Assembly (NCBI GenBank): GCA_964016885.1
Contig: OZ024746.1
Location: 97,216,001-97,280,000, forward strand
Length of the DNA stretch: 64,000 nucleotides
From: Eledone cirrhosa
Taxonomy: Eukaryota
Direction of reading: 5' to 3'
Shown: piece after piece, positions 9,301-59,570 of the stretch
Position numbering within the stretch: position 1 is the first letter of the stretch
Layout: each line of letters starts with the position of its first letter
The notes under the pieces: generated by a model
The model's database searches: none
The model's input: only the letters and a program-made list of their open reading frames with translations
What the model was told of the DNA's origin: nothing
Translations under genes and position numbers: made by a program

Positions 9301-9516
9301 GATTATCACAGCTCCCCCGATGGTAAACTTTGATGTCACGCTGACTCCTGCATGCTTCCGTCCTCAGATAGCAATCATTGCTATATGTGATCCCATCAGT
9401 ACCACAAACAGTTGCGATTTCTGGTGAGCACATCAGGTTACAACGGCAGACTGGCTTTCGTTTTTCATCCAACAAACAGACTGTTAGCTCAGAACAAATG
9501 AACCCATCACAAGGAT
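9301..9516 (-). CDS. AGRN: Internal coding exon encoding one follistatin-N/Kazal (FS) domain, agrin-like
   Basis: Translation (D)PCDGFICSELTVCLLDEKRKPVCRCNLMCSPEIATVCGTDGITYSNDCYLRTEACRSQRDIKVYHRGSCDN has the 10-Cys FS pattern and the Kazal motif VCGxDGxTYxNxC. Acceptor ttttatttcctacag, donor gtgagc. 216 nt, symmetric phase 1-1. Exon is secure; the agrin assignment is from recalled similarity to invertebrate agrin FS repeats. Confidence 0.8.
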
Positions 9517-12321: not shown

Positions 12322-12630
12322 TCATCATCATTTCATTTTACGTCCGTTTTTTTCCCTGCTTGCAAGGGTGGGACGGGAACTGATTCTGGCTTGATTTCTA
12401 CAACTGGATGCCATTCCTAACACCAACCTCATTTACAGTGAGTGCTGGGTGCTTTTTTGCCATGGCACCTGCAGGACCACTTTGCAGTGGAATAATATGG
12501 ACCCCAGTCCCTATCATCTCATTTCTACAGCTGAGTAAACTGGAGCAATGTGAAATAAAGTGTCTTGCTCAAGGAAACAACACATCACCCGGTCTGAGAA
12601 TTGAACTCACAACCTTTCGATTGTAAGGCC
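12322..12630 (-). mobile_element. SINE family A, 5'-truncated
   Basis: Reverse complement of the reference copy, A box missing. Confidence 0.9.
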
Positions 12631-13066
12631 AAAGTGAATTAATATCCATGTGCTTATGATAATATTATATCCACATATATATATATGTGTGTGGGGGTAT
12701 GTGTGTGTGTGTATGTTCGTAATTATGTGTATGTTTATGCATATACGCGCGCGTGTGTGTGATTGTACGGATATGTGTGAGTATGAGAATATGTGTATAC
12801 ACTTATTTCATATTTATGTGTCTATACGCATCTTATCTGTGCATTATAAACTTACAGAGACATTAACCTTGAAATTTTGTATTTGCATGCATCTTTTTGG
12901 CAAGCGTATGCATGTTGAGCATACATTTTTGTATAAATATGAGTACGGGGTAGTTACATGTATATACACACACCGAACTGCATAAAACCTTTTGTATTTT
13001 CATTGGTCAATTTTGTTCCCAAACGGACCTGAAATTTTGAATTGTTGTTATTATCAATAAATATAT

Positions 13067-16147: not shown

Positions 16148-16204
<57 letters not shown>

Positions 16205-16292
16205 GAAGTTATATTTAATTTGTTGGGATACAACAAGCAAATATTTTTATAACTGATATAAAGCACTCAACAAATTATTGGAGTAAAAATAC

Positions 16293-16640
16293 AATATATT
16301 AACAAATGGAAACTATATTTATTTCATTATACATATTTCAAGGACACCAAAGCAAATTATGGTGCGCTTTCATCAGATAAAATATAATATAGATCAGTTT
16401 TATAAACAAATATTGACATACCCTTAAAGAATGCGACCATATCGGTTGCAAGCTCCCGGGAGCTTCCAACCGATATGGTCGCATTCTTTAAGGGTATGTC
16501 AATATTTGTTTATAAAACTGATCTATATTATATTTTATCTGATGAAAGCGCACCATAATTTGCTTTGGTGTCCTTGAAATATGTATAATGAAATAAATAT
16601 GGTTTTATAAATATAGTTTCCATTTGATAATATATTATAT
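16293..16640. repeat. Near-perfect spacerless palindrome with a hammerhead motif on each arm
   Basis: Axis between 16457 and 16458 (aagctccc|gggagctt). About 143-bp arms with one mismatch, extended past a short indel. CTGATGA at 16539-16545 (+) and 16370-16376 (-). Confidence 0.95.
16528..16597 (+). ncRNA. Hammerhead motif in the right arm of the palindrome (mirror copy on minus, about 16318-16387)
   Basis: CTGATGA-AAG-cGCACCA-taatttgctt-TGGTGTc-CTT-GAAA-TATGTA, then AATAAA. Stem I is weak. Confidence 0.6.
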
Positions 16641-16734
16641 ATATATAGGTAAGTTATTCCAGGTTGAATCGGAGGTAACCACAGTAAGTAAGGTACTCAA
16701 TACATAGCAGAGTATAAAAGTTTTAATATAGATG

Positions 16735-16785
16735 AGATTCTACAGGACTAGAACTGTTTCATTCTTTAGAAATCATCAGGAATCT
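16735..16785 (-). ncRNA. Type-I hammerhead ribozyme motif with intact core
   Basis: Minus strand: AGATTC-CTGATGA-tTTC-taaa-GAAt-GAAA-CAG-ttctagtc-CTG-TA-GAATCT. Confidence 0.8.
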
Positions 16786-17587
16786 GGCTTTCCAAAAATA
16801 AATGTTGTGGTATTTATATCTTTTCAGGTGGTATATATATATTAAAGCTTTCATACATAAAAAGTAGTATGGTAATTTTTTAAAACTACATTTTAAAACT
16901 GTCTCAGTATACATTATTTATGTTGCCATTTTGAATTGATTTTTTTCCATGATAGCTTGAGTGGAATATTTCTTTGTAAATAAATATGGATGTTTTCATT
17001 ATCCTTAAACATTGCAATAAATGTAAAGTAGGAGAGATATCTATGTGAAATCTAACACACTGGCAAGCAGGGAAATTGCTCTTCCAAGATTTAGATTCCT
17101 GACCATGTGGTTAGTAATTCATCATATTACTCATGGTACTTATAAACTGTCAAATAAAAAAGCATTATTTGGTGGCTCAGTTGGTAAGCGTGTTCGAATT
17201 TGTAGCTTCCACTGTCAAGTTGTAAGTTCATTTCCTATCTGGGATTGTAGAATTAATTTTGAAAAGTAGAACCAATTATTTACACACACACAGACCCACA
17301 CACATATTTAAGGAGTATTTGCACCTAGATCATAGAATTTATACAATCTTTTTTTGTTTGTTTTGGTTTTAGCCTTTTGACTGGAGCTATGCTTGTTCAC
17401 TACCTTGAAAGGCTTTAGTAATTTTGTAAATTCTGTAGATCCTAATCCATTGGATGTTTGATACTTATTTCAACAGATATCAACTGTCTTTATAGGGTAA
17501 AGTACATCAAAAATTAGTGCACACAACTAAGTTGAATGATTAAGAAGTGTTATTTACCTTAACCTCAGCTTGACTCAAGTTATGTAG

Positions 17588-17852: not shown

Positions 17853-18193
17853 GGCACATGGCTTAGTGGTTAGAGCATTGGCCTTGCAATCGAAAGGTTG
17901 TGAGTTCAATTCTCAGACCGGGTGATGTGTTGTTTCCTTGAGCAAGACACTTTATTTCACATTGCTCCAGTTTACTCAGCTGTAGAAATGAGATGATAGG
18001 GACTGGCGTCCCTATCATTCCACTGCAAAGTGGTCGTGGAGGTGCCACGGCAAAAAAGCACGCAGTGCACACTGTAAATGAGGTTGGTGTTAGGAAAGGC
18101 ATCCAGCTGTAGAAATCAAGCCAGAATCAGTTCCCGTCCCACCCTTGCAAGCAGGGAAAAGCGGACGTAAAATGATGATGATGATGATGATGA
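17853..18193 (+). mobile_element. SINE family A (tRNA head, conserved central domain, RTE-like tail ending (TGA)n), reference copy
   Basis: A box tggcttagtgg, B box gagttcaattc, central ccttgagcaagacactt, tail cttgcaagcagggaaaagcggacgtaaaa(tga)n. More than 10 near-identical copies. Confidence 0.92.
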
Positions 18194-38697: not shown

Positions 38698-41600
38698 CAA
38701 TATGAAACTCATGAATGCACTTCTCTATTTCATATCTAAAATCCTATTGGGGTTTTTTTTTTTTTGATCATGTCCATTTTATTGTTAAAAATTTCACCAA
38801 TAAAATTGTTATTGGTGTTTAGCTCCAGGCCAGTACTGACTGAACAGATCTCTGGGCAAAGGCATTCCAAGATTATTCTGCTCTTGTGTATATCAAGCAG
38901 TACATTGTCCAAGGTACCTTTCCTTTTTTTAAAAATATGGTTGGGTAGTATTATTTGAGGGAGATTTCATTGCTATAACTAATGGACTGACCAAGCTAAC
39001 AGAGACTGTCTTATTGGCTTGGTTACCAATATAGTTAGCTATTGTTTAATCCAATTTCAACCATGATTGAGCAGACATATAATGAAAGACAATTTAGCCA
39101 CCAACACCCTTCATTTTAGCAACATGAAGGAGTCCCTTTATTTGTTAAGATTTAAGGGCGTAATTTCAGAGAGATTTGGTTGTTATTTTTATTAGGTTGA
39201 GCAACAATGAATAAAAGGTCTCTTATTTGCTCTGCCAATATAGTTTCTATTAATGGTATAGACAAATGGCAATAATTATATAATTGCTAATTACAAAATA
39301 TATTCAAACTGAATTCAGAAAGATTCTATATGATAAAGATAGGGGAGATGTGAAATATCCATGATTAAAATTATTTTTCCACTAATGTTTCTTGTGAAAC
39401 ATTGCAATTTTGAAATATTTAAAATAAGTTGCCAAAGCTGTTTATATGCACATTGGAATAGGTGCACTGTATCTCTGCCTTTTGTAAGAGGCGACTAAAT
39501 GATTTGACACCAGGAAGGTCATTTGGCCATAAAGCATTACTTCAAAAAGGAGCCCATGATGAGTATGAAAACTGTCATAGGGCCTGCTAAGCTAAGATGT
39601 TTTAGAGTAGAAATTACCTTAAATGTTTATTGTATTTTAAAAGAAGTTGGCAATCCCATAAAAAGTAATCTTTGTATAATCTTTGTATAATCTTTAAAAT
39701 CTCTATAACTAAACAAAACATCATGTAAAGGAAACCCTTATTTTATCAGATGAAAGGCTTTAATTGAAGTATTAAGTATTAAAAATTTGCTGTATTAAAC
39801 CCTAAGCACGATGATAGCTTATTATTTGTAGGCCTCAAATTTTCCAACTTTTCTAACATATATGGTACAGTCCCATATGACATATGGCATTTCTTGGGCA
39901 TTGTAAGCATGGCAGAGCCCATCCCTCTCCAGGCCTGAGTACAGCAGATTTCTTGCAGAGAAAAATAGAAAGTGAGAGAAAGGAAATAAGAAAGAATTGA
40001 CCCCAGTACTAGACTGGTACTTTTTTTATTGACCTCGGCAGGATTTGAACTCAGAGAGCAGAGAGCCAAAATGAATACCATAACTATTCTACCCAATGTT
40101 CTAATGACTCTGCCAATTCGCCGCCTCATAACATAAACCATTAAAGGTAAAGTCTATCCCAAACTCAGTGGCCAGTGCTTAGTCTGTTTTCATTGAAGAT
40201 AACCAACTGGGAGTACCAAACTTCCCTCAGGAAATTTGTAACAGGCTTTCTTCCTTAACCGTATTTCTTTCAGCTGAGTGGACTGGGATAATGTAAAATA
40301 AAGTGTCTTGCTAAAAGACACCCCAATGCTTAGTTCAGGAATTGAATCCATGACCATGAGCCCACACCCTATCCACTAGGCCACATGTCTTCACAAAAAT
40401 ACTAAATAAAAGCTAATTATTGACAAATAATAAATTTTCAGTATGAGAAAATTATACTCAGTTAAAGTTTAATTTTAAGTCTATTTTAAAAATAATATGC
40501 TTATAGACTGCAATTGTGTCATAGATTAAATATTTACATTTTTATTTATTCTACCAAATAGAAAAATTATTACTCTACATCATACAGAAATTATTTATGA
40601 AATATACAAGAGTTTTATACATATTCTGTAACCCTTTTCTAGCAGTATCAATGAAGAATTTTGAGGGATTTACTAAAATCATTAATTATTTCATTACTAA
40701 CACGGTAATTCAACATATGGTTCTTATATATAATTGTGTTGGAAAATTTTAATTTAAATAGGAACCCATTAAAATTGGTGATTTTGTTTCACAAAACCAG
40801 AGCCAGTTTTGGACAGGTTGGTATCAAAACAGCAGCAAAAAAAGATAAATTTTCAAACTAGTTATGAATCTATTACTACGTGTTGATTAGACTTCACAAG
40901 TTAGTAAAATAGTTTATAGTTTTCAACTAGCAATAACCATGCCTAGGATAACCCTCATTGGCTATAGTACTGCCTCTGTACCTGAAGGAAAATAACATTG
41001 TTCCTGAAATCTATAATATTTTGTTAAGTAAGCTATGCGACATGGACCTAGATGATAAAACTTTATACAAATATTTAGGAAATCTGTTACCAAATGAAAT
41101 CATAAATACCAAATGGAATTTGAATTAAGTGTAAAATAATAAAAATGAGTTTCACTAACAAAATACTAATAGTTATTTACTAAGATAAATAAATAACAAT
41201 TATAATGGGAAAACATAGTTGCCTCAAAGTATATGATTAAAATAATAGTTGATAGTTATCAACAATAATTGGAAAAATTGAGTGGTTAGATTCCCTGCAG
41301 GAATCCCACATTTTTAGATCTTTAGAAGTATTTTACCCAATTTGTTCAAATACCATTGATAACTATTATTATAGTTATTGGCATTGCAGCGACTAATTTT
41401 CAAATTTCTCAATGCTTCGTAAGTCAACCCAATAATAAAGATTTTAATAAACTAGAAAATCTTTAACGATTTTGAAAATATCTAAAATATGAATAAAAGC
41501 TTCAATAATTTCAACAGATTTAAATGCAAGGGTACAATGTATGTCTTTAGATTAGGATGAAGATTTACAAAGATAGGTGAGTTTGTAGATGTAGTAGAAC

Positions 41601-58950: not shown

Positions 58951-59381
58951 TTTGCATGTCATAAGAAGGTCTCTGATTATAAAGTATTGCCTCAAAAAGT
59001 CTAGTTCACCCAAATTTGCATGATAAGTTGAAGTAAAAATGACGATATATATATATCAGTATAACATCATCATTTTAATCTAATTTCCATTATATAAATT
59101 TATAAACTTAAGAAAATTAACAAAGAGAGGACGAGACAAAATGAAAAAAATTGTTTTAAGCAGAAACCTTGAAAACTTATTTAAAATAAATAAAAATACA
59201 AACGAAGGACACATAACTCCATGGTCACAGTGTCTGACACAAGCCAAATGTTGTCAAGTGGAGTAAGAGATGAGGAACAAAAACTTTAATTTATAGCAAT
59301 TAAGCTACAAGTACATATATATAAGTTATTCCGGGTTGAATCGGGGGTAATACATAGCAGAGTATAAATGTTTGGACAGCC

Positions 59382-59432
59382 AGCTTCCTGATGATTTCTC
59401 ACGAATGAAACAGTTCTAGTCCTGTAGAAGCT
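59382..59432 (+). ncRNA. Type-I hammerhead ribozyme motif with intact core, same family as 16735-16785
   Basis: AGCTTC-CTGATGA-tTTC-tcac-GAAt-GAAA-CAG-ttctagtc-CTG-TA-GAAGCT. Confidence 0.8.
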
Positions 59433-59446
59433 CTTCTATATATATA

Positions 59447-59570
59447 TATGAAAATGTTTGACCCCAATGGCAGATCTCAAGCCGTTTCGACGGCTATTTC
59501 TGTCCAGAAATAGTCCAGAAATAGCCGTCGAAACAGCTTGAGCTCTGCCATTGGGGTCAAATATTTTTAT
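59447..59570. repeat. Palindrome built from a hammerhead 3'-half fragment
   Basis: tttgaccccaatggcagatctcaagccgtttcgacggctatttctg / cagaaatagccgtcgaaacagcttgagctctgccattggggtcaaa. Homologous to 11146-11208 and 59823-59880. Confidence 0.85.

What the first reader, a model, noticed from the sequence alone, without database searches (positions are those of the whole stretch)
16293..16640. Spacerless ~290-bp palindrome core placing a hammerhead on both strands
Arms of about 143 bp with a single mismatch and no loop, extended by about 22 bp beyond a short indel. Any transcript would form a long dsRNA hairpin that masks the ribozyme and could be an ADAR or Dicer substrate; the DNA could extrude a cruciform. 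It fits a head-to-head inverted pLTR made by fold-back during PLE integration. Near identity implies a young or conversion-maintained structure.
Basis: partly seen in the sequence, partly recalled or inferred. Interest (0 to 1): 0.75.

Follow-up and report, generated by a model that had tools for sequence, protein, structure and literature searches.

The report
Head-to-head Penelope retrotransposon stub
This palindrome is two short copies of the end of an abundant Penelope-type jumping gene joined head to head, one of at least 78 with the same centre in this genome; the layout is already described, and the copies suggest each half was likely copied separately onto its own cut DNA strand.

Summary
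Observation confirmed: a 286-bp spacerless palindrome (16315-16600, one C-C mismatch), a 14-bp indel, 22 more paired bases, and a type I hammerhead motif on each strand. The real unit is larger (16202-16637): the left arm carries a further 91-bp 'tail', and both ends sit in (TA)n. It is a protein-less stub of a young, abundant Hydra-clade Penelope-like element (5,348 exact hammerhead 24-mers genome-wide). 78 loci share this exact centre, and some are longer and perfect, so it is neither unique nor likely an artefact. Inverted pLTRs, junction palindromes and one-sided tails are published. The copies speak to mechanism: 36 of 37 classifiable head-to-head pairs have one short end and one tail end, 14 of those 36 share no sequence between arms, and 22 of 36 short arms stop within 14 bp of this centre. 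That favours two separately primed cDNAs joined at a native CCGG over simple fold-back, which stays possible for this locus. It lies in what is likely an agrin intron, so a pre-mRNA hairpin is plausible; no RNA data. The scan noted the same pattern before (385 notes, at least 45 genomes).

The parts
16202..16292 (-). PLE 'tail': the stretch that follows the pLTR in the element's 5' UTR; present on this arm only (tail end, about +272)
   Evidence: matches a real element copy to its tail end; in full-length copy L070 it lies between the pLTR and the ATG at +320
16293..16457 (-). left arm: 5'-truncated pLTR copy with a 14-bp deletion and one substitution
   Evidence: the same deletion junction occurs at 196 sites genome-wide
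16456..16459 (.). junction: the element's own self-complementary CCGG, shared by both arms
   Evidence: native read-through sequence at 664 sites, palindromic join at 78 loci
16458..16637 (+). right arm: 5'-truncated pLTR copy ending at the short end (about +180 to +184)
16531..16595 (+). type I hammerhead motif: helix I 8 bp, core 16539-16545, helix II 9 pairs with one C-C mismatch, GAAA 16576-16579, 2-bp helix III with self-complementary loop; predicted cut after 16587
   Evidence: helix II compensatory changes across subfamilies; no Rfam match
16320..16384 (-). mirror copy of the hammerhead motif, predicted cut after 16328; sense strand of the host gene
16170..16201 (.). (TA)n target tract, left flank (end of a longer CA/TA microsatellite)
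16637..16647 (.). (TA)n target tract, right flank; no target-site duplication can be read
16649..16800 (-). neighbouring copy of a different hammerhead-bearing repeat family sharing the TA tract
9301..9516 (-). internal Kazal/follistatin exon of the likely host gene (agrin-like); the palindrome is in the intron upstream of it
   Evidence: Pfam Kazal_2 E=1.4e-12; splice sites read from sequence; 8 same-strand Kazal exons on C6 and an NtA domain upstream

Best explanation
This is a protein-less insertion stub of a Hydra-clade Penelope-like retrotransposon, made of two copies of its pLTR joined head to head in a (TA)n tract, likely built at insertion from two cDNAs primed on the two cut target strands. 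Shown: the arms are pLTR copies of an element with a ~740-aa RT ORF; one arm ends at the tail end, the other 90 bp short of it; the join is the element's own CCGG. Inferred: the endonuclease cuts both strands of the TA tract; each 3' end primes reverse transcription at one of two fixed internal sites (+184 and +274); both cDNAs run to a fixed stop near position 0, probably the RNA's 5' end; their 3' ends anneal through CCGG and are filled in, giving a loopless palindrome. When the tail-primed cDNA stops earlier, the same process gives the asymmetric forms that are more common. The hammerheads are passengers of the pLTR and are predicted to be inactive here: each strand has one sense copy, the motif likely needs a dimer, and it would be paired with its antisense. 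The palindrome probably has no selected function.
For: Parent element: copies continue into ORFs with RT and Hydra motifs; L070 shows inverted copy + pLTR-tail-ORF-pLTR; the model of a 742-aa ORF from a related subfamily (pLDDT 90.7) has telomerase RT as its best fold match (E 3.4e-09). In 80 consecutive loci of contig C1: 36 of 37 classifiable pairs are short+tail, 1 short+short, 0 tail+tail (p 2.8e-10 against 50%); the tailed arm starts at +170 or later in 18 of 36 and beyond the short end in 14; the short arm reaches further 5' in 28, the tailed arm in 2, tie in 6; 22 of 36 short arms stop at -9..+4; 31 of 50 flagged junctions show overlap of 1 bp or more. Both arms are of the same subfamily in 36 of 36 pairs (shuffle mean 23.6). 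In vitro a PLE protein cuts and extends both strands and starts at two internal sites that bound the tail (PMC11167929).
Against: For this symmetric locus the family statistics do not exclude fold-back of one tail-primed cDNA. The RNA 5' end at about position 0 is inferred from truncation points only. 13 of 50 flagged pairs had an unclassifiable end and were left out (4 look like false pairs with TA noise), L128 and L129 look like one duplicated event, and the sample required an exact hammerhead 24-mer. Subfamily concordance could reflect shared timing rather than one RNA. No read was shown to span this very locus. Pfam found no RT or GIY-YIG domain in the ORFs, and no GIY-YIG structure was among the listed fold matches.
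Confidence: 0.68

Rival explanations
1. Same element, but the palindrome arose by fold-back or self-priming: one tail-primed cDNA turned at CCGG and copied itself until the short end, or an antisense RNA self-primed (the published proposal).
For: Loopless centre; both arms share a rare C-to-T change seen at only 7 exact 28-mer sites genome-wide; PMC3846280 reads junction palindromes as self-priming on an antisense template. It also predicts one tailed and one short arm.
Against: It needs one arm to be contained in the other, which fails in 28 of 36 pairs, 14 with no shared sequence. A turn at CCGG would rest on a single base pair and a 2-nt loop (read from sequence). The left arm's 14-bp deletion is absent from the right arm, though it may postdate insertion.
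Confidence: 0.22
2. The palindrome is kept or used by the host as an intronic dsRNA element (ADAR or small-RNA substrate) in agrin pre-mRNA, with arms homogenised by conversion.
For: Lies between same-strand Kazal exons downstream of an NtA domain; the 286-nt core folds at -228 kcal/mol, 98% paired; in 5 of 28 pairs rare variants are shared by both arms; palindromic repeats and a lizard Penelope are heavily edited (PMC5625713).
Against: Young, one of hundreds of similar stubs; older pairs diverge independently (84 one-arm against 13 both-arm rare variants); it sits in an interval of about 124 kb between detected exons. Editing as a by-product would not show function.
Confidence: 0.06
3. Assembly or library fold-back chimera.
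For: No read or contig was shown to span this locus with its own variants; reads crossing any family centre were few (about 3 of 226 and 2 of 178 laid reads), fewer than the 78:664 ratio in the assembly.
Against: The arms differ (2 substitutions, a 14-bp deletion, different outer ends) and the flanks are not mirrored; 78 loci share the centre, with different flanks in those fetched; the short/tail asymmetry is systematic; hairpins are expected to be under-amplified in short-read libraries (general knowledge).
Confidence: 0.04

Closest known systems
Endonuclease-positive Penelope-like element insertions with an inverted 5'-truncated pLTR and a one-sided tail (PMC3846280; PMC8557442 Fig. 2)
   Same: Head-to-head inverted pLTR, palindrome at the junction, tail on one arm only, hammerhead in the pLTR, microsatellite target.
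   Different: Tail is about 90 bp, not 30-40 bp; the stub has no ORF; the junction palindromes quoted there are 18-38 bp, here the whole arm (up to 183 bp each, perfect in L019).
Hydra clade of PLEs, including Hydra-1_Obim (PMC8557442 section 11 and supplement)
   Same: DKT, RW(R) motif, CxCX5C linker, CxxC and CxH near the C-terminus, hammerhead, (TA)n target, ORF about 740 aa.
   Different: A distinct family: by eye the Hydra-1_Obim protein shares motifs but not sequence detail, and its hammerhead differs; no computed comparison was possible.
Poseidon PAc of Anolis (PMC11167929)
   Same: Two fixed 3' ends that bound the tail; AT-rich target; both strands cut and extended in vitro.
   Different: Different clade; in the half of the paper I read, the inverted structure is not explained; here both ends fall on short TA-like stretches of the RNA, whereas PAc starts at non-homologous sites; the ORF here starts downstream of the tail.
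L1 twin priming (original model recalled; named in bioRxiv 10.1101/2024.12.14.628481)
   Same: Two target ends prime two cDNAs that are joined at their 3' ends, giving an inversion.
   Different: L1 uses the poly(A) tail and a variable internal site; here both sites are fixed and the cDNAs can overlap, giving true palindromes.
Non-LTR retrozymes (bioRxiv 10.64898/2026.07.22.740005)
   Same: Non-coding, type I hammerhead, derived from PLE pLTRs.
   Different: Retrozymes are head-to-tail tandem units; this is head-to-head, and junction details vary among loci, which points to fresh assembly at each site rather than copying of a unit.

Membership tests
EN+ Penelope-like element | Single ORF with telomerase-related RT | tested here: met
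   ORFs of 628-781 aa in copies with the same or a related pLTR; best fold match TERT. The window stub itself has no ORF.
EN+ Penelope-like element | C-terminal GIY-YIG endonuclease | tested here: inconclusive
   Motif-like stretch NIVY..NYVG..FKSRF..H read from the translation, residues Y622, Y635, G637, R646 and H650 invariant in 108 relatives; Pfam gave no hit and none of the listed fold matches was a GIY-YIG.
EN+ Penelope-like element | pLTRs from partial tandems, inverted upstream copy, optional tail | tested here: met
   L070: inverted copy, pLTR+tail, ORF, pLTR; 44 of 80 sampled loci head-to-head.
Hydra clade | DKT motif and RWK motif | tested here: met
   SDKT and RRIRWR (RWR variant) in L070, L073, L075; definition.
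Hydra clade | CxCX5C linker, no CCHH, CxxC and CxH near the end | tested here: met
   CNCRNKSNC, CDLC/CALC and CCKH/CCRH in the translations, no CCHH pattern seen by eye; C601, C603, C609 invariant.
Hydra clade | Insertion into (TA)n and a hammerhead in the pLTR | tested here: met
Hydra clade | Placement in the Hydra clade by RT phylogeny | not tested
   Reference proteins were seen in the supplement but could not be brought into a tree.
Type I hammerhead (PLE variant) | Core CUGANGA, GAAA, UH with helices I and II and a short self-complementary helix III | tested here: met
   helix II pairs vary as G-U/G-C/A-U and C-G/U-A across subfamilies
Type I hammerhead (PLE variant) | Conserved G10.1-C11.1 pair | tested here: not met
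   Helix II opens with A-U in this subfamily; G-C in some relatives; feature from PMC4209133.
Type I hammerhead (PLE variant) | Self-cleavage | not testable with these tools
   The monomer hammerhead fold is -7.1 against an MFE of -15.9 kcal/mol.
Non-LTR retrozyme | Head-to-tail tandem units, each with a hammerhead | tested here: not met
   Two copies, head to head.

The most novel reading that the evidence does not exclude
Penelope-like elements integrate by fixed-site twin priming: both cut strands prime cDNA at the two ends of the tail, both run to the RNA's 5' end, and a self-complementary word there turns them into perfect palindromes. This one family has thereby seeded several hundred loopless hairpins of about 180 bp per arm, including in an agrin intron, as ready ADAR substrates in what is likely a cephalopod.
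Probability: 0.45. Interest if true: 0.55.

Novelty: new member of a known kind. Interest (0 to 1): 0.3.

Why it matters
The locus itself is ordinary transposon debris. The family is useful because how PLEs make their inverted ends is an open question in the papers read (PMC8557442, PMC3846280). Thousands of young copies with two fixed ends and a fixed stop give counts that separate twin priming from fold-back and point to a direct in vitro test. If the host edits RNA heavily, these stubs would also be a sizeable source of perfect intronic dsRNA.

Tried and rejected
Rfam found no hammerhead at the locus. Folding the isolated motif gave no significant z-score (-1.3 to -1.4). Pfam and PDB sequence search did not recognise the ORF; the fold search did. 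One search used wrong coordinates (a downstream flank) and is not used. Searches stopped on index errors; the missing parts were rerun. No RNA holder listed, so editing, small RNAs and the RNA 5' end were not examined. Contigs and RAD reads did not span this locus with its own variants. I tested whether the left arm's 14-bp deletion marks a source lineage: it is recurrent (196 sites), so it says nothing on mechanism. I tested for pairs with arms of different subfamilies: 0 of 36. Rejected: a MITE-like or retrozyme unit that copies itself (junctions and flanks vary); a TSD (both flanks are TA). Search of earlier findings by sequence gave nothing.

Full report
Observation. The palindrome is real as described: centre 16457|16458, 143-bp arms with one mismatch at offset 9, a 14-bp indel, then 22 more paired bases. 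Other non-simple palindromes in the window had arms of at most about 50 bp. Each arm holds a hammerhead core, at 16539 on + and 16376 on -. The window lies at C6:97,216,001-97,280,000 of a 3.0-Gb genome. The host is an animal; I infer a cephalopod from the AT-rich, microsatellite-laden sequence and from the best named protein relative, which is from Argonauta (39% identity). That is inference, not a test.

What the arms are. One arm is a high-copy young repeat: 576 candidates, 40 scored, the best full-length matches at 99% identity; an exact 24-mer of its hammerhead occurs 5,348 times. Walking upstream in other copies leads into ORFs of up to 781 aa. They carry SDKT, RRIRWR, YRDD, CNCRNKSNC, CxxC and CxH, and I saw no CCHH; these are the features given for the Hydra clade of Penelope-like elements (PMC8557442 section 11). 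Pfam and PDB sequence searches missed the protein, but the AlphaFold model of the L075 ORF (related subfamily; pLDDT 90.7) matched telomerase RT best. The endonuclease rests on motifs and invariant residues. L070 has the textbook layout: inverted copy, pLTR with tail, ORF, pLTR. The tail is the 5' UTR that follows the pLTR, with the ATG at +320.

The real unit. The left arm continues to 16202 as the 91-bp tail; the right arm stops at about 16637; both ends abut (TA)n. The native sequence reads through a CCGG at the centre position (664 exact sites), and the palindrome is what results when two copies overlap on that word. 78 loci have the same 24-nt palindromic centre. Of the 17 examined, several are longer and cleaner than this one: L019 is 366 bp without a mismatch, L085 356 bp. 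Among the first 100 hammerhead sites listed, 6 head-to-head pairs lie 172-186 bp apart (178 is perfect), which extrapolates to roughly 300 such loci.

Mechanism. I fetched 80 consecutive loci on C1 from that list (80 of about 90). With one reference 44 of 80 were head-to-head: 38 short+tail, 1 short+short, 5 with another end. With five references 50 pairs were flagged; 13 had an unclassifiable end (4 look like TA noise) and were left out; of 37, 36 were short+tail, 1 short+short, none tail+tail. The tailed arm begins at +170 or later in 18 of 36 and beyond the short end in 14, so those arms share nothing. The short arm reaches further 5' in 28, the tailed arm in 2, and 6 tie. A cDNA that folds back can only copy what it already holds, so these forms need two priming events. 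22 of 36 short arms, and 6 of 30 unpaired copies, stop within a few bases of this centre, which I read as the RNA's 5' end (inferred). Arms were of the same subfamily in 36 of 36 pairs, which fits one RNA but also shared timing; L128 and L129 look like one duplicated event. PMC11167929 shows that a PLE protein cuts and extends both strands and starts at two internal sites bounding the tail. Together this gives fixed-site twin priming as the best model; the window's palindrome is the case where both cDNAs ran to the stop. Fold-back cannot be excluded for this symmetric case.

Age and conversion. The arms differ at 2 of 165 sites plus the deletion; nearest other copies are 1.1-1.2% away and the median copy 6%. 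Both arms share a C-to-T change found at 7 exact sites genome-wide, so they came from one template or were converted. Over 28 pairs, 84 rare variants are on one arm and 13 on both, the latter in 5 loci: youth explains most of the identity. The deletion lies between two 8-bp direct repeats and recurs at 196 sites.

Hammerhead. Helix I has 8 bp, helix II 9 pairs with one mismatch, helix III 2 bp with a self-complementary loop; the predicted cut is after 16587. Helix II covaries across subfamilies. The G10.1-C11.1 pair is absent and Rfam does not match. PMC4209133 reports that such motifs need a dimer and cleave weakly. With one sense copy per strand, locked in a -228 kcal/mol hairpin, cleavage here is unlikely.

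Context. An exon with a Kazal domain lies at 9301-9516 on -. Eight Kazal exons run on the same strand of C6, with the palindrome between those at 97,349,506 and 97,225,308, and an NtA domain lies upstream: an agrin-like gene by domain order (architecture recalled). The pre-mRNA would contain the hairpin. PMC5625713 reports heavy editing of palindromic repeats, of a lizard Penelope, and in octopus generally. Nothing here tests editing.

Artefact check. Contigs from the best-holding sample and RAD reads from other individuals did not span this locus with its own variants. A few reads crossed a family centre (about 3 of 226 in X21, 2 of 178 in X23), with the common allele where called, against 184 and 138 loose ends with the native upstream sequence. 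That is fewer than the assembly ratio and counts against a clean confirmation. Unequal arms, unmirrored flanks and the systematic asymmetry make a chimera unlikely.

What is known. PMC3846280 describes inverted pLTRs, a tail on one of them and palindromes at head-to-head junctions, and proposes self-priming on an antisense template. PMC8557442 gives the same layout and lists an octopus Hydra family. Searches for a twin-priming account of PLEs listed none by title or abstract; I did not read those hits for it, and older subscription papers are not in the library. The scan itself holds 385 notes in at least 45 genomes with these words, and most of the 8 shown reach the same two-ended reading; I had formed it before that look-up, and those notes are not independent support.

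Papers seen: PMC8557442 passages, section 11 and supplement passages; PMC11167929 parts 1-2 of 4; bioRxiv 10.64898/2026.07.22.740005 part 1 of 5 (its supplements were not seen); PMC3846280, PMC4209133, PMC5625713 and bioRxiv 10.1101/2024.12.14.628481 passages only. The L1 twin-priming model is recalled.

Verdict. Real, but an ordinary stub of a new Hydra-type family with a published architecture. Interest 0.3; its value lies in the family counts that bear on PLE integration.

Noticed in passing
window 16649-16800 (-); pieces at 59322-59441: A second hammerhead-bearing repeat family shares the TA tract with the palindrome; its copy near 59.4 kb is itself rearranged, with pieces in both orientations.
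   Followed up: partly
window about 59455-59560: Inverted repeat with arms of about 46 bp and a 13-nt spacer, GC-richer, next to the second hammerhead copy.
   Followed up: no
window 9876 (+): A third compact hammerhead-like motif with GAAAC, downstream of a TA tract.
   Followed up: no
window 12350-12632 and 17878-18160: Two tRNA-derived SINE copies in inverted orientation, 95% complementary over 283 bp, bracket the palindrome 5.2 kb apart in the same intron; another potential dsRNA.
   Followed up: no
window 40848-40987 (-): U4 snRNA match, 62.9 bits, with a degraded 3' half; probably a pseudogene.
   Followed up: no
window 9301-9516 (-): Kazal exon of an agrin-like gene spanning about 1 Mb of C6.
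   Followed up: partly
window about 54170 and 62835: Two further AT-rich palindromes with arms of 45-50 bp.
   Followed up: no
L079:6945-8318 (-): ORF of a second, distant Hydra-type family, 39% identical over 349 aa, beside several copies of this family.
   Followed up: partly
G000, whole genome: The RT fragment drew 38,686 first-look candidates, and some related copies keep open frames over 700 aa, yet Pfam sees no RT domain: an annotation blind spot for a very abundant family.
   Followed up: partly
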